NCBI RefSeq assembly: GCF_041248615.1
Contig: NZ_CP158426.1
Reading direction: 5' to 3' (one strand)
Length of the DNA: 64,000 nt
From: Escherichia coli
GTDB taxonomy: Bacteria > Pseudomonadota > Gammaproteobacteria > Enterobacterales > Enterobacteriaceae
The position numbers are program-made. How positions within the stretch are numbered: position 1 is the stretch's first letter; each line of letters begins with the position of its first letter. Of this stretch, positions 43,401 to 64,000 are shown in pieces.

Positions 43401-46400
43401 TTAACCGTGGCTAACCTGCAACTAGCCGTTAAAGGTGAATACTTCGATGCCATCATTCGCGGAGAGAAAACGGAAGAGTATCGCCTGTGTAATGACTACT
43501 GGAATAAGCGAATTATGTTCAGGGATTATGACCGACTGATTATCACAAAGGGATATCCGAAGCGCGACGACTCCAGTCGTAGAATTGACGTCCCGTATGA
43601 CGGATATGAAATCAAGACAATCACACATCCCCACTTCGGCGATAAACCGGTAAAGGTATACGCGATAAAGGTAAATATTGATGGCTAAATCAGCAGCAGA
43701 GCGCAAAGCCGCTCAGAGAGCCAGACAAGCTGCATCTGGTGTGCGTAAGCTGGAGATTGTGCTTGATGCTCAGGAAATTGAAATGCTGGAGCGTAACTGC
43801 GCCGCCCGGCGCCCTGGTCGAGATCCCTATGAAATGGCCGAGTACATCGCGCTGCTGATCCGCCAGGATGATGCCCGGGTGCGCGGGCGTATAAAATCGA
43901 TCAGCAGAAAACGTTGCGGTAAGTGCGGCGAGAGAGTTCCAGTTAATTCATGCCCGTGCAATGGTGACTCGCAATGCTGGGTGACTAAAGGCTGGCATGA
44001 AACGAAATTAATAGTGTGACATGTCACGAGTAGATTATGCATGATGAATTTGATGTGTTTTGAATACTGCCGCCAACTATGGCGGCTTTATTTTGCATGG
44101 TACTATTACCACAACGGTAACTATTACCACGGTGGTTATGATGCCTGCTGAACCTAAAACCTATAAACGCAAATCAACGCAATTTAAGCCACTAACAGCA
44201 ATGCAGGAGGCTTATTGCCAGTCATACATCAAAACGCCTGAAAACCAGACTCAGGCAGCGATTAACGCAGGATTCTCCCCAAATACAGCGGCAGTTAAAG
44301 CCAGTGTCATGATGCGCGATGAACGCATTCAAAAACGGATTGCCGAGTTGATGGAGGAGCGCAACAAACGAATGCGCGTCAGTGCTGATTACGTTCTCAT
44401 GCGCCTGGTGGAGATCGACCAGATGGACGTGATCGATATCCTCAACGACGATGGGAGCCTTAAACCAATCCGTGAGTGGCCGAAAATCTGGCGCACTACG
44501 CTTAGTGGCTTTGATCTGTCATCGACCATCATGAACATGAACGAGGATTCGATAGAGACAATCCTCAAAAAAATTAAATGGCCTGACAAGGTGAAGAACC
44601 TCGAACTGATTGGTAAGCACGTCGACGTCAACGCATTCAAAGAACGCCTGGATGTTAATGTGAATGTGACAATTGCTGATCGCATAGCGGCAGCCAGGAA
44701 GAGACTGAAAGAACGTCAGGATGGCAATCAGTGACAGATACAGCGTTATCTCCTGAAGAGCAGTTAATCGAGGATATTGCAGGGTTCACTCACGATCCGC
44801 TTGGCTATGCCCTCTATGCGTTCCCGTGGGGGGAAGAGGGTACTGAACTGGCACATGCCACCGGTCCACGTCAGTGGCAGGCCGATGCGTTCCGAGAGAT
44901 ACGTGATCACCTGCAGAATCCAGAGACGCGATATCAGCCGCTTATGCTGGCACGTGCTTCTGGTCACGGTATTGGTAAATCCGCATTCATCTCAATGCTG
45001 ATCAACTGGGGCATGTCCACTTGCGAGGATTGTAAGGTCGTGGTGACCGCCAACACCGACAACCAGCTACGAACGAAGACCTGGCCGGAAATTATCAAGT
45101 GGTCGAACCTTGCTATCACGAAAGACTGGTTTACCTGTACCGCTACCGCGATGTACAGCAATGACCCTGGGCACGACAAGCGGTGGCGAGCTGACGCAAT
45201 CCCCTGGTCTGAGCACAACACTGAGGCATTCGCCGGACTACACAACGAGCGCAAACGCATCATCGTGGTATTCGACGAAGCATCCAACATTGCCGATCTG
45301 GTGTGGGAGGTAGCAGAGGGTGCGCTGACGGACGAAGACACTGAGATTATCTGGGTGGCATTCGGAAACCCTACACGTAACACCGGGCGTTTCCGCGAAT
45401 GTTTCCGCAAATATAAACACCGCTGGAAAACTGCGCAGATTGACAGCCGGACGGTGGAAGGCACTAACAAACAGCAGTTGCAGAAATGGGTTGATGACTA
45501 CGGGGAAGACAGCGACTTCGTTAAAATCCGTGTGCGCGGCATATTCCCGGATGCATCTGAATTGCAGTTTATCCCTACCGGCCTTACTGACGAGGCAATG
45601 AAACGGGTGGTAACCGCTGCGCAGGTTGCACATGCTCCGGTGATAATCGGCGTTGACCCGGCATACTCCGGCGTTGATGACGCTGTGATATACCTGCGGC
45701 AGGGGCTGCACAGTAAGGTGCTATGGACTGGTAACAAGACCACCGACGATCTGATTATGGCGAAGCGTATCGCTGACTTTGAAGACCAGTACCAGGCTGA
45801 CGCAGTGTTCATCGACTTCGGTTACGGAACTGGTCTGAAGTCAATCGGTGATGGCTGGGGACGTACATGGCAACTTGTTCCGTTCAGCGGTGCGTCCACT
45901 GACCCGCAGATGCTTAACAAGCGTGGGGAGATGTTCAACTCATGCAAGACATGGCTGAGGCTGGGCGGCATGCTGGATGACCAGGAAACAGCAGACGACC
46001 TGTCGGCGGCAGAGTACAAAGTTCGAGTGGACGGTAAAATCGTTATCGAACCGAAGGAAGATATCAAGGAGCGGCTTGGGCGTTCTCCTGGTAAAGGCGA
46101 TGCGCTACTGCTGACGTTTGCGTTCCCTGTGTCGAAGCGTCTGCGAATTCCCGGGCAGCAGAACCAGCAAGGCAAGGCCATCACAGATTACGATCCATAT
46201 GCTTAATCCGCTGGTGGGGATAATACTGCTGATATCCTCTGGTGAGGATAAAACAAAGCCAGCTCATCGGCTGGCTGTTTGTGACATGTCACGGTGTTAT
46301 TGCTCGCTTAACTTCTGCTTCAGCAAGTAACCTTCGAGCATCCAGATTTTGTTTACAGCATTCTGCCGGGCAATCTTCCGACCAATTTCTGCATCAAAAT

Positions 46401-61400: not shown

Positions 61401-64000
61401 GAAGTGACAGATCTACTGCGCCGCCGGTTTAATGATGCTGGTGGGGACATTGGCTATCTCGAAAACTGGGGGATCCCTCAGCATCATTCTATGGAAAAGG
61501 TTGGGGCGGTATCAAAGGATAAGTGGGTTAGCGATGTTATAGGTAAGCTGGATCGCAAATATTATATCCGAGCCGATGGACAACTGATGAACGATGCCGA
61601 GTTGTCTGCATTTCTTGGAGAGGCTTATAACACGATCGCTACTGGTGGGCTGAATAAGCTTACTGATACCGGAATGCGAATTTCCGGCGCACGTGCTAAC
61701 CGTGGTAATGCATCACGACAGATACATTTCAAAGATGCAGATTCCTATCTGCAATATCAGCAACTTTATGGCGATCGCTCTCTATGGGAAATCATGGTCG
61801 GTCACCTGGAAGGTATCAGTAAAGATATTGCACTGGTGGAAACATATGGCCCAAACCCCGATCATGTTTTCCGCTCTCTTCTTGATCAGGTGAAGGCAGA
61901 AACGGCAACAGCTAACCCGAGTAAAACCGGTAAAGTCGAGCGGCTGGCGAACAACACAGAGAATCTGTACAACTTTATTTCCGGAAAGACACAGCCTGTA
62001 GCGAATCCGCACATCGCGCGATGGTCTGACAATATCCGCAACTGGCTGGTTGCCAGCAGACTCGGATCTGCGTTGCTATCATCGTTCTCTGATCTTGGAA
62101 CCATGTATCTGTCTGCGAAGGTGACCAACCTTCCAATGAACCAGTTATTCCGCAACCAGCTTGAAGCTATGGACCCAACGAACCGTACAGAACTTGCGCG
62201 GGCGCGCCGCGCTGGTCTGGCGATGGAATCTCTACTTGGCAGCGTTAACCGCTGGGCGATGGATAATATGGGGCCGTCAGTGTCTCGTTGGGCGGCAACG
62301 GCGGTAATGCGTGCCAGTGGGCTTACAGCATGGTCAGATGCGCACAAGCGCGCCTATGGCGTAACCATGATGGGAAGCCTGGGAGAAGTAGTGTCACGGA
62401 CACCAGACCTTCGTAGCCTCGATGATTCTGATTTTCGTATCCTGAAAAGCAAAGGGATTACTGACACAGACTGGAGCGTATGGAAGCTGGCGCAACAGGA
62501 GGACTGGGGGAACGGTAATAATACGATGCTGACACCGGAAAGCATTATGCGTATCCCTGATTCAGCAGTTAAACATCTTGGTGAGCCTGAGCGCGTGAAA
62601 TTTGAGGCAATGCGTAAATTGCTAGGTGCCGTAACTGAAGAAGTTGATATGGCTGTTATTACACCGGGAGCTCGTGAGCAACTGATAACCGGTTCTGGTA
62701 TTCAGCGTGGAACATGGAAAGGTGAATTAACGAGAAGTGTTTTCCTGTTTAAATCTTTCCCTATCTCGGTTGTTATGCGTCACTGGTCACGCGCTATGGG
62801 TATGCCGTCTGCTGGTGGGCGTGCGGCATATATTGCGACGTTTATTGCCAGTACGACCATTCTTGGCGCTTTGTCGCAGCAACTTAACGACCTTGCGTCT
62901 GGTCGTAATCCTCGAGAGATGACAGGAGAAGATGCCGCAAAATTCTGGCTTGGTGCTCTACTGAAAGGTGGTGGTCTTGGCCTTTACGGTGACTTTTTAT
63001 TGTCAGATCACACCAGGTACGGAAGCGGCGCGCTGGCGTCGATGCTTGGCCCGGTAGCTGGTCTGGTTGATGACGTGGTGAAGATTGCTCAGGGCATACC
63101 GTTAAATGCTGTGGAAGGGAAGAGTGAGCAGACTGGTGGTGATCTGGTGAAGCTGGGGAAAGGTTTGATGCCTGGTGCGAATCTCTGGTATTTGAAGGCG
63201 GCTCTCGATCACATGATCTTTAACCAGATGCAGGAGTATTTTTCACCAGGCTATTTGCGTAAAATGGAGCAACGTTCGAAGAAAGAGTTTAACCAGACAT
63301 ACTGGTGGCGACCTCAGGATGTCACTCCGCAATAAGGAAGTGTTGTGTTTTTAATTATTTTGAGTGTAATAATTTCTGGTGGATTGTTATTTATTGACCA
63401 CTACAAATATTTTCTTAACCCTCAGACTCAAGCTATTTGCTGGTTCATCTTTGTTGTGCAGGGAGTAGTTCTTGTTGCAAGCCTTATTGAGGGGAGGCCT
63501 CTTATTTTTACTGGGTAAATAGGTGACTACATGCAAGCTATAGGATTCATTGTTTATATCGTCGTTGGTCTTTTTCAGTTGGCAGCAATTATGGCTGGGC
63601 TTGAATCATGGTGGGGATTGCACTGGATAATTGCAGCCCCCATCGCTTTCATCGTGAGCTATATTCCATTTGTTGGAGCGATTGTTGGTATGGTTGGCGC
63701 TGTGGATGTATGGCGGTGGGAGTGGTGGCAGGCTGGCCTTCTATTCTTTGGTGGGATAATCTTTGCTATTGTCTGCGGTGGAATGTCATCATTTTTCGAA
63801 TGGCTATCATTCAGAAAAGAGACGTGACATGTCACAGGCCGCTTTCGCGGCCTTGTTTTTAACGAATGCCACCGCCGCCCGGGCGGGAATCCGCAGAACG
63901 CCCACCGCAGCGGGAGCCGTCAGCGGCAGTATCGCTGTCGTGCTGACAACGGCCGGCAAAGGCCTGAGTTGAAGCTACCAGAGACAACAAAACGAACAGT

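What the first reader, a model, noticed from the sequence alone, without database searches (positions are those of the whole stretch)
44016..63835. Three perfect copies of GTGACATGTCAC, each at a gene end in the prophage
Copies are at 44016-44027 and 63824-63835 (both overlapping a TGA stop) and 46281-46292 (just past the Gp49-like gene end). About 0.01 copies of a given 12-mer are expected by chance in 64 kb. Two copies bracket the terminase module and the third follows the last virion-associated gene. They could be module-boundary recombination sites, methylase target sites, or binding sites for a late regulator or packaging factor.
Basis: seen in the sequence. Interest (0 to 1): 0.55.

Follow-up and report, generated by a model that had tools for sequence, protein, structure and literature searches.

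The report
Operator sites of an unnamed phage regulator
The three identical 12-base palindromes are real, are conserved across epsilon15-like phages, and are most likely the DNA docking sites of a small uncharacterised phage protein whose own gene ends inside one copy, giving a first handle on how these phages control the boundaries of their gene blocks.

Summary
GTGACATGTCAC occurs three times in the window, against 0.02 expected. All three copies lie in an epsilon15/phiV10-like (Uetakevirus) prophage inserted beside guaA.

Salmonella phage epsilon15, only about 80% identical in DNA, has three perfect copies at the homologous places.

The general motif is GTGAC-NN-GTCAC. It travels with one protein family (epsilon15 gp49, phiV10 gp55, N15 gp46; PHROG 536) across unrelated phage backbones, often three copies per genome against about 0.03 expected. 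One copy usually overlaps or directly follows that gene's stop codon. The family has no Pfam, NCBIfam or UniProt name.

The protein is predicted to be a ribbon-helix-helix dimer, with a C-terminal zinc finger that faintly resembles TraR/DksA.

In two environmental contigs the exact 12-mer fills the spacer of a near-consensus promoter upstream of a short ribbon-helix-helix-only homologue, which is a classic operator layout.

In the window the sites sit beside the intrinsic terminators that close three transcription units. I infer an effect on RNA polymerase at operon ends; the direction of that effect is unknown.

Recombination-linker, methylation, packaging, MatP/matS and RNA-hairpin readings are less well supported. 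No binding experiment exists.

The parts
44016..44027 (.). Site 1: GTGACATGTCAC overlapping the TGA stop of the regulator gene, about 120 bp upstream of the probable terS start
   Evidence: Perfect in 75 of 79 close relatives. The exceptions are the single-base variants GTGAAATGTCAC and GTGACATGTTAC; phiV10 itself carries the latter. Perfect at the homologous place in epsilon15 and PAT1.
46281..46292 (.). Site 2: same 12-mer between the two-way terminator after terL and the stop of the minus-strand Gp49-family gene
   Evidence: Perfect in 51 of 79 relatives, one mismatch in about 9, and absent in about 12 where the cassette after terL is a different one.
63824..63835 (.). Site 3: same 12-mer overlapping the TGA stop of a 98-aa ORF and directly abutting the terminator that closes the head/tail-hub operon
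   Evidence: The 12-mer plus terminator unit is conserved behind different upstream genes in phiV10, epsilon15 and PAT1. The unit is present in 531 of 5426 complete E. coli genomes. One genome keeps the terminator without the 12-mer.
43681..44019 (+). Gene for the 112-aa candidate binding protein (epsilon15 gp49 / phiV10 gp55 / N15 gp46 family): basic helix, ribbon-helix-helix, long helix, Cys-rich zinc finger
44069..44095 (+). Intrinsic terminator closing the early-right operon, 41 nt after site 1
   Evidence: 7-bp stem, 6 GC pairs, T-run. The equivalent is annotated in epsilon15 at 39646-39672.
46257..46276 (.). Terminator hairpin shared by terL (+) and the Gp49-family gene (-). The strong T-run is on the minus strand, and the 12-mer lies on the side with the poor T-run.
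63836..63860 (+). Intrinsic terminator starting at the base after site 3
   Evidence: 7-bp stem, 6 GC pairs, TGTTTTT.
46297..46653 (-). Gp49-family gene (PHROG 322, function unknown), part of a variable cargo cassette that carries site 2 with it
63531..63827 (+). 98-aa ORF (PHROG 3075, unknown function) whose stop lies in site 3. It is replaced by other small genes in phiV10, epsilon15 and PAT1.
44106..44138 (.). Context: two prophage-repressor (Rep) operators, TTACC-N5-GGTAA, just before the probable terS ATG at 44138. This is a different motif from the 12-mer.
   Evidence: Matching sites are annotated as 'repressor' protein_bind features in epsilon15.

Best explanation
The 12-mer is the recognition site (operator) of a phage-encoded DNA-binding protein, the 112-aa product of window 43681-44019 (epsilon15 gp49 / phiV10 gp55 / N15 gp46 family).

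Proposed binding mode (inferred): the protein dimerises through a ribbon-helix-helix fold, and its two-fold symmetric beta-ribbon reads the two GTGAC arms of GTGAC-NN-GTCAC on double-stranded DNA.

What is shown:
- The motif and the gene co-occur across unrelated phages, and one copy usually sits on or just after the gene's stop codon.
- The fold is predicted to be ribbon-helix-helix.
- Short homologues that have only this domain lie downstream of a promoter whose spacer is the same 12-mer.

Inferred function in this prophage: the protein is made as the last product of the early-right operon. It then occupies three sites that abut the intrinsic terminators closing the early-right, terminase and head/tail-hub transcription units, and acts on RNA polymerase arriving there.

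Most likely (inference): it is a physical block that reinforces or insulates these operon ends, including the side of each hairpin that lacks a good T-run, and that limits read-through past its own gene. The C-terminal zinc finger, faintly TraR/DksA-like, may contact polymerase.

Whether the net effect is more termination or less is not settled by any data here.
For: 1. Conservation across a diverged genus. Epsilon15 (~80% DNA identity) has three perfect copies at the homologous positions, with diverged flanks. PAT1 has two perfect copies and one copy with a changed centre.

2. Co-occurrence with the gene on unrelated backbones.
- Myovirus ZF40: 3 copies, one 3 nt after the gp22 stop.
- Lambda-like Chlobot: 1 copy, 7 nt after the homologue's stop.
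- N15: 3 copies of GTGACTGGTCAC, one on the gene 46 stop.
- A P2-like Yersinia phage: TGTGACGCGTCACA on the gp13 stop.
- Vibrio phage K233: 3 copies.
- L092: 3 copies in 14 kb. L093: a tandem pair.
- Markov expectation is 0.005-0.037 per genome. The observed count is 0 in the host DNA of the window and 0 in lambda.

3. Fold.
- AlphaFold pLDDT is 92, with helices at 30-42 and 52-75.
- Strands 22-28 appear in both copies only when two chains are linked.
- Weak YbfE (a ribbon-helix-helix protein) hits come from NCBIfam.

4. Operator layout in an independent setting. In L135 and L176 the exact 12-mer fills the 17-bp spacer of TTGACT/TATCAT and TTGACT/TATAGT promoters. Two to three genes downstream lies a 49-53 aa homologue of the N-terminal domain alone (hhalign probability 92% and 73%).

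5. The central CATG is itself palindromic, and the RNA does not form a stable hairpin. Both points fit recognition of duplex DNA by a dimer.

6. Geometry in Uetakeviruses. Sites 2 and 3 and their counterparts in relatives abut a GC hairpin, in the order 12-mer, hairpin, T-run; at site 1 the same order holds with a 22-45 nt gap.
Against: - No binding has been measured. The pairing is inferred from co-occurrence and a predicted fold.
- Four fragments carrying more distant homologues (27-36% identity) show no such motif, though they are short, 2-12 kb. One N15-like element has it only inside repA.
- The sites are not essential in every relative. phiV10 has a 1-mismatch site 1. Site 2 is mutated or missing in 28 of 79 relatives. 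Site 3 is missing in at least one E. coli prophage.
- Outside Uetakeviruses the sites are not consistently next to terminators. Some lie inside genes (ZF40 gp08 and the cII-like gene, N15 repA), so the terminator-linked function may be lineage-specific.
- A block placed upstream of a terminator has no obvious benefit for plus-strand transcripts at sites 1 and 3.
- The exact 12-mer also arises for unrelated reasons: the MRDMSQ coding sequence at the start of P22 gp23-like Q genes, and GTGACA iteron arrays.
Confidence: 0.6

Rival explanations
1. Late-gene switch of the lambda Q type. The protein binds site 1, whose left half (GTGACA) doubles as the -35 element of a weak promoter followed by a promoter-proximal terminator. 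It then modifies RNA polymerase so that it reads through the terminators into the terminase, head and tail genes. Sites 2 and 3 would reload the factor before the next terminators.
For: - The gene occupies the 'Q position': it is the last early gene before the terminase genes here, and before lysis or terminase genes in L092, L095, L098, K233 and L123.
- Site 1 gives GTGACA-17-TAAATT followed 5 nt later by the terminator in epsilon15, and GTGACA-18-CATGAT in the window.
- Sites lie 23-31 bp upstream of terS in L092 and K233.
- Sites 1 and 3 precede their terminators on the plus strand.
- The zinc finger is weakly TraR/DksA-like, a family that binds polymerase.
Against: - Each late operon already has its own Rep-controlled promoter region (operators at 44106/44124 and 47252; epsilon15 annotation), so read-through is not obviously needed.
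- At site 2 the 12-mer lies after the hairpin for plus-strand transcripts.
- Sites 2 and 3 have no promoter-like partner hexamers on the plus strand.
- There is no match to any Q family in Pfam.
- N15 and the N15-like L089 already encode a Q-like protein elsewhere.
Confidence: 0.2
2. Short conserved linker sequences at module boundaries that serve as crossover points for homologous or RecET-type recombination, so that cassettes can be swapped. No protein reads them.
For: - The regions next to sites 2 and 3 are cargo hot spots.
- At site 3, the upstream genes differ between the window, phiV10, epsilon15 and PAT1, and similarity starts exactly at the 5' edge of the 12-mer. Many E. coli alignments start at query base 6-7.
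- The phage encodes RecT and an exonuclease.
Against: - At site 2 the swap boundaries are the terL stop and a point beyond the Gp49-family gene. The 12-mer sits inside the swapped block and disappears with it.
- 12 bp is very short for homologous exchange.
- The idea does not explain a perfect palindrome, the link to one protein family on unrelated backbones, the sites inside genes, or the promoter-spacer placement.
Confidence: 0.1
3. Sites for the host protein MatP (or another host factor). The arms are those of matS, so the phage would be borrowing or titrating the factor that organises the chromosome terminus.
For: - The arms GTGAC/GTCAC are identical to those of matS (matS19 is GTGACACTGTCAC; PMC6538776).
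- Hosts of the phages carrying the motif are enterobacteria, Vibrio and Aeromonas.
- Phage K233 also carries one true 13-bp matS-consensus site.
Against: - The spacer is 2 bp, not 3, in every phage copy seen. This changes both the distance and the rotation between the half-sites.
- The motif tracks the phage gene, not the host.
- hhalign finds no MatP homology (probability 0.2%).
- The prophage lies beside guaA, which from my own knowledge of the E. coli map is far from the terminus region. There are no matS-type 13-mers in the window.
Confidence: 0.05
4. An RNA element: a small hairpin, GUGA-CAUG-UCAC, at the 3' ends of transcripts that affects mRNA stability, processing or termination.
For: In the Uetakevirus copies it is transcribed at the end of a transcription unit, directly 5' of the terminator hairpin at sites 2 and 3 and 41 nt before it at site 1.
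Against: - The predicted hairpin has only 4 base pairs and appears in only one of the folded contexts. Energies are no better than shuffles for the site 1 and site 3 contexts.
- A loop has no need to be palindromic.
- The promoter-spacer copies and the copies inside genes on either strand do not fit.
Confidence: 0.04
5. Target of a phage DNA methyltransferase or of a restriction/anti-restriction system, or a terminase pac signal.
For: - The prophage encodes an MT-A70 methylase and a second SAM-dependent methyltransferase. ZF40, N15 and epsilon15 also carry methylases.
- Site 1 lies just upstream of terS.
Against: - Methylase targets are typically 4-8 bp and occur many times per genome.
- Three cut or recognition sites per genome would be harmful for packaging.
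- The motif is found with unrelated terminase types.
- Nothing here tests methylation.
Confidence: 0.03

Closest known systems
Ribbon-helix-helix repressors with palindromic operators (P22 Arc and Mnt, CopG, E. coli YbfE, antitoxins such as ParD and TacA)
   Same: - Predicted beta-alpha-alpha fold that needs a partner chain to form the ribbon.
- A short two-fold symmetric DNA site.
- In the short homologues of L135 and L176, an operator inside the promoter of the operon that encodes the protein.
   Different: - No Pfam or NCBIfam ribbon-helix-helix model reaches threshold.
- The protein carries an extra N-terminal basic helix and a C-terminal zinc finger.
- In this prophage the sites are at the 3' ends of operons, including the protein's own stop codon, rather than at its promoter.
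MatP and its matS sites (E. coli terminus macrodomain)
   Same: Identical half-sites GTGAC/GTCAC. MatP also uses a ribbon-helix-helix module for DNA binding. Both have several dispersed copies rather than one operator.
   Different: matS is 13 bp with a 3-bp centre, and the phage motif is 12 bp with a 2-bp centre. There is no detectable sequence homology. MatP has a four-helix bundle and a coiled coil, and no zinc finger. The phage motif follows a phage gene.
Lambda Q antiterminator and its binding element at the late promoter
   Same: The regulator gene is the last early gene, immediately upstream of its first DNA site and of the late genes. A terminator follows shortly after the site.
   Different: There is no similarity to the Q families. 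Two of the three sites are not at promoters. The late operons here have their own repressor-controlled promoter regions.
TraR/DksA family C4 zinc-finger proteins (factors that bind the secondary channel of RNA polymerase)
   Same: A long helix followed by a CxxCG..P zinc finger. The best PDB profile hits are YbiI and TraR (E about 0.07). hhalign against TraR gives E 2e-4. One family member hits the NCBIfam DksA/TraR model at E 3e-4. In the P2-like Yersinia phage the gene lies just after the replication gene, where, from my own recollection (not checked here), P2-like phages carry a TraR-like gene.
   Different: All scores are below family thresholds. The N-terminal tip that reaches the polymerase active site in TraR is replaced here by a DNA-binding domain. 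The spacing of the later cysteines differs.

Membership tests
Ribbon-helix-helix (CopG/Arc/MetJ) DNA-binding proteins | Beta-strand, helix, helix fold forming a dimer with a two-stranded antiparallel ribbon | tested here: met
Ribbon-helix-helix (CopG/Arc/MetJ) DNA-binding proteins | Match to a curated sequence model of the family | tested here: not met
   No Pfam hit for the window protein. Among the 54 aligned members, the RHH_1 and RHH_5 models each hit one member, at E 0.03-0.07. The YbfE model hits at E 0.004-0.014, below its cut-off.
Ribbon-helix-helix (CopG/Arc/MetJ) DNA-binding proteins | Symmetric or repeated operator bound by the dimer | not testable with these tools
   A symmetric candidate site exists and co-occurs with the gene. 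Binding itself needs EMSA, footprinting or ChIP.
Ribbon-helix-helix (CopG/Arc/MetJ) DNA-binding proteins | Operator placed in the promoter of the operon encoding the protein (autoregulation) | tested here: inconclusive
   Met for the short homologues in L135 and L176. Not met in the window, where the site lies on the gene's stop codon.
MatP/matS | 13-bp site GTGAC-RNY-GTCAC | tested here: not met
   All window copies, and the copies in all related phages examined, have a 2-bp centre. The matS19 sequence is from PMC6538776.
MatP/matS | Protein homologous to MatP | tested here: not met
   hhalign probability 0.2%. There is only a fold-level resemblance of the ribbon-helix-helix part.
Lambdoid Q antiterminators | Membership of a Q protein family | tested here: not met
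   No Pfam family hit at all.
Lambdoid Q antiterminators | DNA site within a late promoter that is followed by a terminator | tested here: inconclusive
   Site 1 only: weak promoter-like hexamers (9 of 12) and a terminator 5-23 nt after the -10. Sites 2 and 3 have no plus-strand promoter.
DksA/TraR C4 zinc-finger proteins | Helix plus C4 zinc finger matching the family model | tested here: inconclusive
   PDB profile search gives E 0.06-0.08 to YbiI and TraR. hhalign probability is 46%, E 2e-4. NCBIfam PRK11019 gives E 3e-4 for one member, 21 bits against a cut-off of 96.
DksA/TraR C4 zinc-finger proteins | Binding in the RNA polymerase secondary channel | not testable with these tools
   Needs pull-down, a structure or transcription assays.
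Terminase recognition site (pac/cos) | One site per genome, tied to the terminase type | tested here: not met
   There are three copies per genome. The motif occurs with Sf6-like (this prophage), lambda-like (N15, Chlobot) and other terminases.
Methyltransferase or restriction target | Modified base within the motif | not tested

The most novel reading that the evidence does not exclude
The family is a fusion of a sequence-specific ribbon-helix-helix DNA-binding domain with a TraR/DksA-like polymerase-binding zinc finger. Parked on GTGAC-NN-GTCAC sites, it meets the downstream face of an approaching RNA polymerase and changes its behaviour at that exact place. It would turn one-way terminators into conditional two-way ones, or let polymerase pass them. 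That would be a DNA-tethered, site-specific effector of elongating polymerase, a mode not described for the TraR/DksA family.
Probability: 0.15. Interest if true: 0.8.

Novelty: new variant of a known kind. Interest (0 to 1): 0.55.

Why it matters
Epsilon15-like prophages are in about a tenth of complete E. coli genomes: the site-3 unit is found in 531 of 5426. They include the O157 typing and reporter phage phiV10. Their repressor/antirepressor switch has been studied, but nothing is known about what happens at the ends of their operons or about gp49/gp55.

The link found here gives an unnamed protein family a concrete, testable DNA target. The family has 160 clusters at 50% identity, spread over temperate phages of Escherichia, Salmonella, Klebsiella, Yersinia, Pectobacterium, Vibrio and Aeromonas.

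If the sites modulate termination, they are a compact protein-controlled terminator module. That would be useful for understanding late-gene timing and the insulation of cargo genes, and possibly as a synthetic-biology part.

The identity of the half-sites with matS also raises the question of cross-talk with the host's chromosome-organising protein.

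Tried and rejected
- Full-text search for the 12-mer found no paper. Searches on epsilon15/phiV10 terminators and on Uetakevirus late genes found nothing relevant. The epsilon15 genome paper was not found under the PMC id I recalled.
- Pfam, NCBIfam and PDB sequence searches of the protein were empty. AFDB Foldseek returned only uncharacterised family members.
- The search for related loci with the diverse alignment failed for lack of a conserved stretch.
- MatP homology was negative.
- The 12-mer is not a stable RNA hairpin and does not pair with the terminators.
- A promoter role for all three sites was rejected. Only site 1 has partner hexamers on the plus strand.
- A selection test among the 79 close relatives was uninformative, because every region is more than 97% conserved.
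- A metagenomic contig (3300045988_096329) shows an inverted duplication around a 12-mer. That could be an inversion or an assembly chimera. I could not tell which, and did not use it.
- The Rep operators were checked and are a different motif.
- I did not count the 12-mer in the whole host chromosome.

Full report
**Observation.** GTGACATGTCAC occurs exactly three times in the window, at 44016, 46281 and 63824. Dinucleotide-preserving shuffles give 0.02 copies, and none of 100 shuffles reached three. Allowing two mismatches adds only chance-level hits. Only the 12 bases are shared; the flanks are unrelated. Site 1 overlaps the TGA of CDS 43681-44019. Site 3 overlaps the TGA of CDS 63531-63827. 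Site 2 lies 4 nt beyond the stop of the minus-strand 'Gp49 family' gene.

**What the window is.** The window is E. coli NRZ14408 chromosome positions 1408001-1472000. From about 31.7 kb onward it is a prophage of the epsilon15/phiV10 type (genus Uetakevirus) inserted next to guaA. This is the integration site reported for the related phage ZX5 (PMC9782041). All three copies are in the prophage. There are none in the host part of the window, and none in the rest of the prophage beyond it.

**Anatomy in this prophage.** Each copy lies beside an intrinsic terminator that ends a transcription unit.
- Site 1 is followed after 41 nt by the terminator of the early-right operon (44069-44095).
- Site 2 touches the terminator shared by terL and the convergent Gp49-family gene (46257-46276).
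- Site 3 is followed at the next base by the terminator of the head/tail-hub operon (63836-63860).

On the strand that carries the good T-run, the order is always 12-mer, hairpin, T-run. The same holds in phiV10, epsilon15, PAT1 and many metagenomic relatives. The prophage repressor's operators (TTACC-N5-GGTAA) are a separate motif. They sit in front of the immunity region, terS and the head operon.

**Conservation.**
- Epsilon15, a Salmonella phage only about 80% identical in DNA, has exactly three perfect copies at the homologous places, with diverged or unalignable flanks.
- PAT1 has two perfect copies and one GTGACAGGTCAC.
- phiV10 has two perfect copies, and GTGACATGTTAC at site 1, split across the ends of its record.
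- Among 79 close relatives from viral contigs, site 1 is perfect in 75.
- In the same set, site 2 is perfect in 51 and has one mismatch in about 9. It is absent in about 12, where the whole cassette after terL is a different one.
- The site-3 unit is present in 531 of 5426 complete E. coli genomes, usually once. At least one genome keeps the terminator without the 12-mer.

The sites are therefore strongly but not absolutely conserved. Site 1 is the most constant.

**The link to a protein.** The gene that ends in site 1 encodes a 112-aa protein of PHROG 536. It has no Pfam, NCBIfam or PDB sequence match, and only 'uncharacterised' relatives in AFDB. The family is small: 160 clusters at 50% identity. 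It occurs in phages with unrelated backbones, and the motif goes with it.
- Pectobacterium myovirus ZF40 has three perfect copies, one 3 nt after its gp22 stop.
- Lambda-like phage Chlobot has one copy, 7 nt after the homologue's stop.
- N15 has three copies of GTGACTGGTCAC, one on the stop of gene 46.
- A P2-like Yersinia phage has TGTGACGCGTCACA on the stop of gp13.
- Vibrio phage K233 has three copies, one 31 bp before terS.
- Contig L092 has three copies in 14 kb, one 23 bp before terS.
- L093/L094 have a tandem pair 23 bp apart, start to start.

The common form is GTGAC-NN-GTCAC. A first-order Markov model expects 0.005-0.037 copies per genome. Lambda and the host DNA in the window have none. 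Four short fragments with more distant homologues show no copy, and one N15-like element has it only inside repA.

**The protein's predicted nature.**
- AlphaFold gives a confident model (pLDDT 92). It has a basic N-terminal helix, an extended segment at 22-28, helices at 30-42 and 52-75, and a Cys-rich loop region.
- When two copies are joined by a flexible linker, residues 22-28 of both copies become beta-strands. This is what a ribbon-helix-helix dimer requires.
- Some members weakly hit the YbfE model.
- The C-terminal half weakly resembles TraR/YbiI/DksA-type zinc fingers in three separate tests. All three are below family thresholds.

**An independent operator-type setting.** A collection scan for the 12-mer with T/G flanks turned up two environmental contigs, L135 and L176. 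In both, the exact 12-mer fills the 17-bp spacer of a near-consensus promoter, TTGACT-17-TATCAT and TTGACT-17-TATAGT, each matching 10 of 12 positions. Two to three genes downstream lies a 49-53 aa protein homologous to the N-terminal basic-helix plus ribbon-helix-helix part of the family. This is the classic layout of an autoregulated repressor and its operator. It assigns the DNA-binding function to the N-terminal domain.

The same scan showed that the 12-mer also arises for unrelated reasons. One is the coding sequence MRDMSQ at the start of P22 gp23-like Q genes. The other is arrays of GTGACA repeats.

**Mechanism.** What is shown: a conserved, symmetric site; its co-inheritance with one protein family; a predicted dimeric DNA-binding fold; an operator layout in short homologues; and adjacency to terminators in this phage group. 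What is inferred: that the protein binds the sites, and that in Uetakeviruses it acts on RNA polymerase at operon ends.

I favour a blocking or insulating role, for two reasons. The short homologues look like repressors. And at sites 2 and 3 the 12-mer occupies the side of the hairpin that lacks a good T-run, so a bound protein could stall polymerase just as the hairpin forms.

A Q-like read-through role is the main alternative. It fits the gene's position and the layout of site 1. It does not fit the orientation of site 2, or the presence of repressor-controlled promoter regions in front of each late operon.

**Other readings.**
- Recombination linkers fit site 3 but not site 2.
- MatP/matS shares the arms but not the spacing, and there is no protein homology.
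- An RNA hairpin is not predicted to be stable.
- A packaging signal is excluded by the copy number and by the mixture of terminase types.
- Methylation was not testable.

**Verdict.** The feature is real and conserved. Its best explanation is a previously undescribed regulator-operator pair of a familiar general kind, placed unusually at gene and operon 3' ends. No experiment yet supports binding or function.

Noticed in passing
window 36832-36908, 37606-37668, 37991-38005, 39937-40013, 44106-44138, 47252-47266: Clusters of TTACC-N5-GGTAA palindromes: 15 hits at up to 1 mismatch against 1.1 expected. They match the sites annotated as repressor-binding in epsilon15. They lie at the immunity region and directly in front of the DUF1064 operon, terS and the head operon. 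This suggests that each operon is repressed directly by the prophage repressor.
   Followed up: partly
window 44060-44138: The RefSeq start of terS (TTG at 44060) would place a strong terminator hairpin and two repressor operators inside the coding sequence. The ATG at 44138, equivalent to the epsilon15 start, is the more likely start.
   Followed up: partly
window 46207-46700, and L025, L031, L042, L052, L058, L066, L079, L081, L086: The stretch after terL is a cargo hot spot. In about 12 of 79 close relatives, the terminator, site 2 and the Gp49-family gene are replaced as one block by unrelated AT-rich sequence. The breakpoints are at the terL stop and near window 46665.
   Followed up: partly
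window 46853-46929 (-): A tRNA-Arg (anticodon TCT) sits in the minus-strand cassette between the terminase and head genes.
   Followed up: no
L219 (Vibrio phage K233) 19491-19503: A 13-bp sequence, GTGACACCGTCAC, fits the host matS consensus GTGAC-RNY-GTCAC. It occurs in the same phage that carries three 12-bp sites.
   Followed up: no
L093 12475/12498, L094 3550/3573, L142 11858/11881: Tandem pairs of the motif with the same 23-bp start-to-start spacing occur in unrelated contigs with different centres (GC and AT). This hints at cooperative binding of two dimers.
   Followed up: no
L140, L147, L153, L154, L156, L166, L175, L177, L178: Environmental viral contigs carry dense arrays of GTGACA/TGTCAC repeats in both orientations, which look like iterons. 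The 12-mer there is just two abutting repeats. No family homologue was found in the fragments held.
   Followed up: no
L115, L134 (1224), L141, L146, L150, L151 (1166): The exact 12-mer is embedded in the first codons (ATG CGT GAC ATG TCA CAG, MRDMSQ) of genes resembling the P22 gp23 late antiterminator. This looks like a coding coincidence.
   Followed up: partly
L089 5065-16350: An N15-like element has seven copies of a GGGACC-NN-GGTCCC palindrome scattered over 11 kb. From my own knowledge, this resembles the dispersed partition (SopB) sites described for N15.
   Followed up: no
L163 and L164 (contig IMGVR_UViG_3300045988_096329): This metagenomic Uetakevirus contig has four copies of the 12-mer and an inverted duplication of the BRO-gene region centred on one of them. 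It could be a real inversion at the palindrome or an assembly chimera.
   Followed up: partly
L007 (N15) 28550-28561: One N15 copy lies between the end of gene 33 and the leader terminator of the antirepressor operon (genes 32-30). On the minus strand it is about 22 bp upstream of a TTGACG-18-TAGAGT promoter-like element, read by eye.
   Followed up: no
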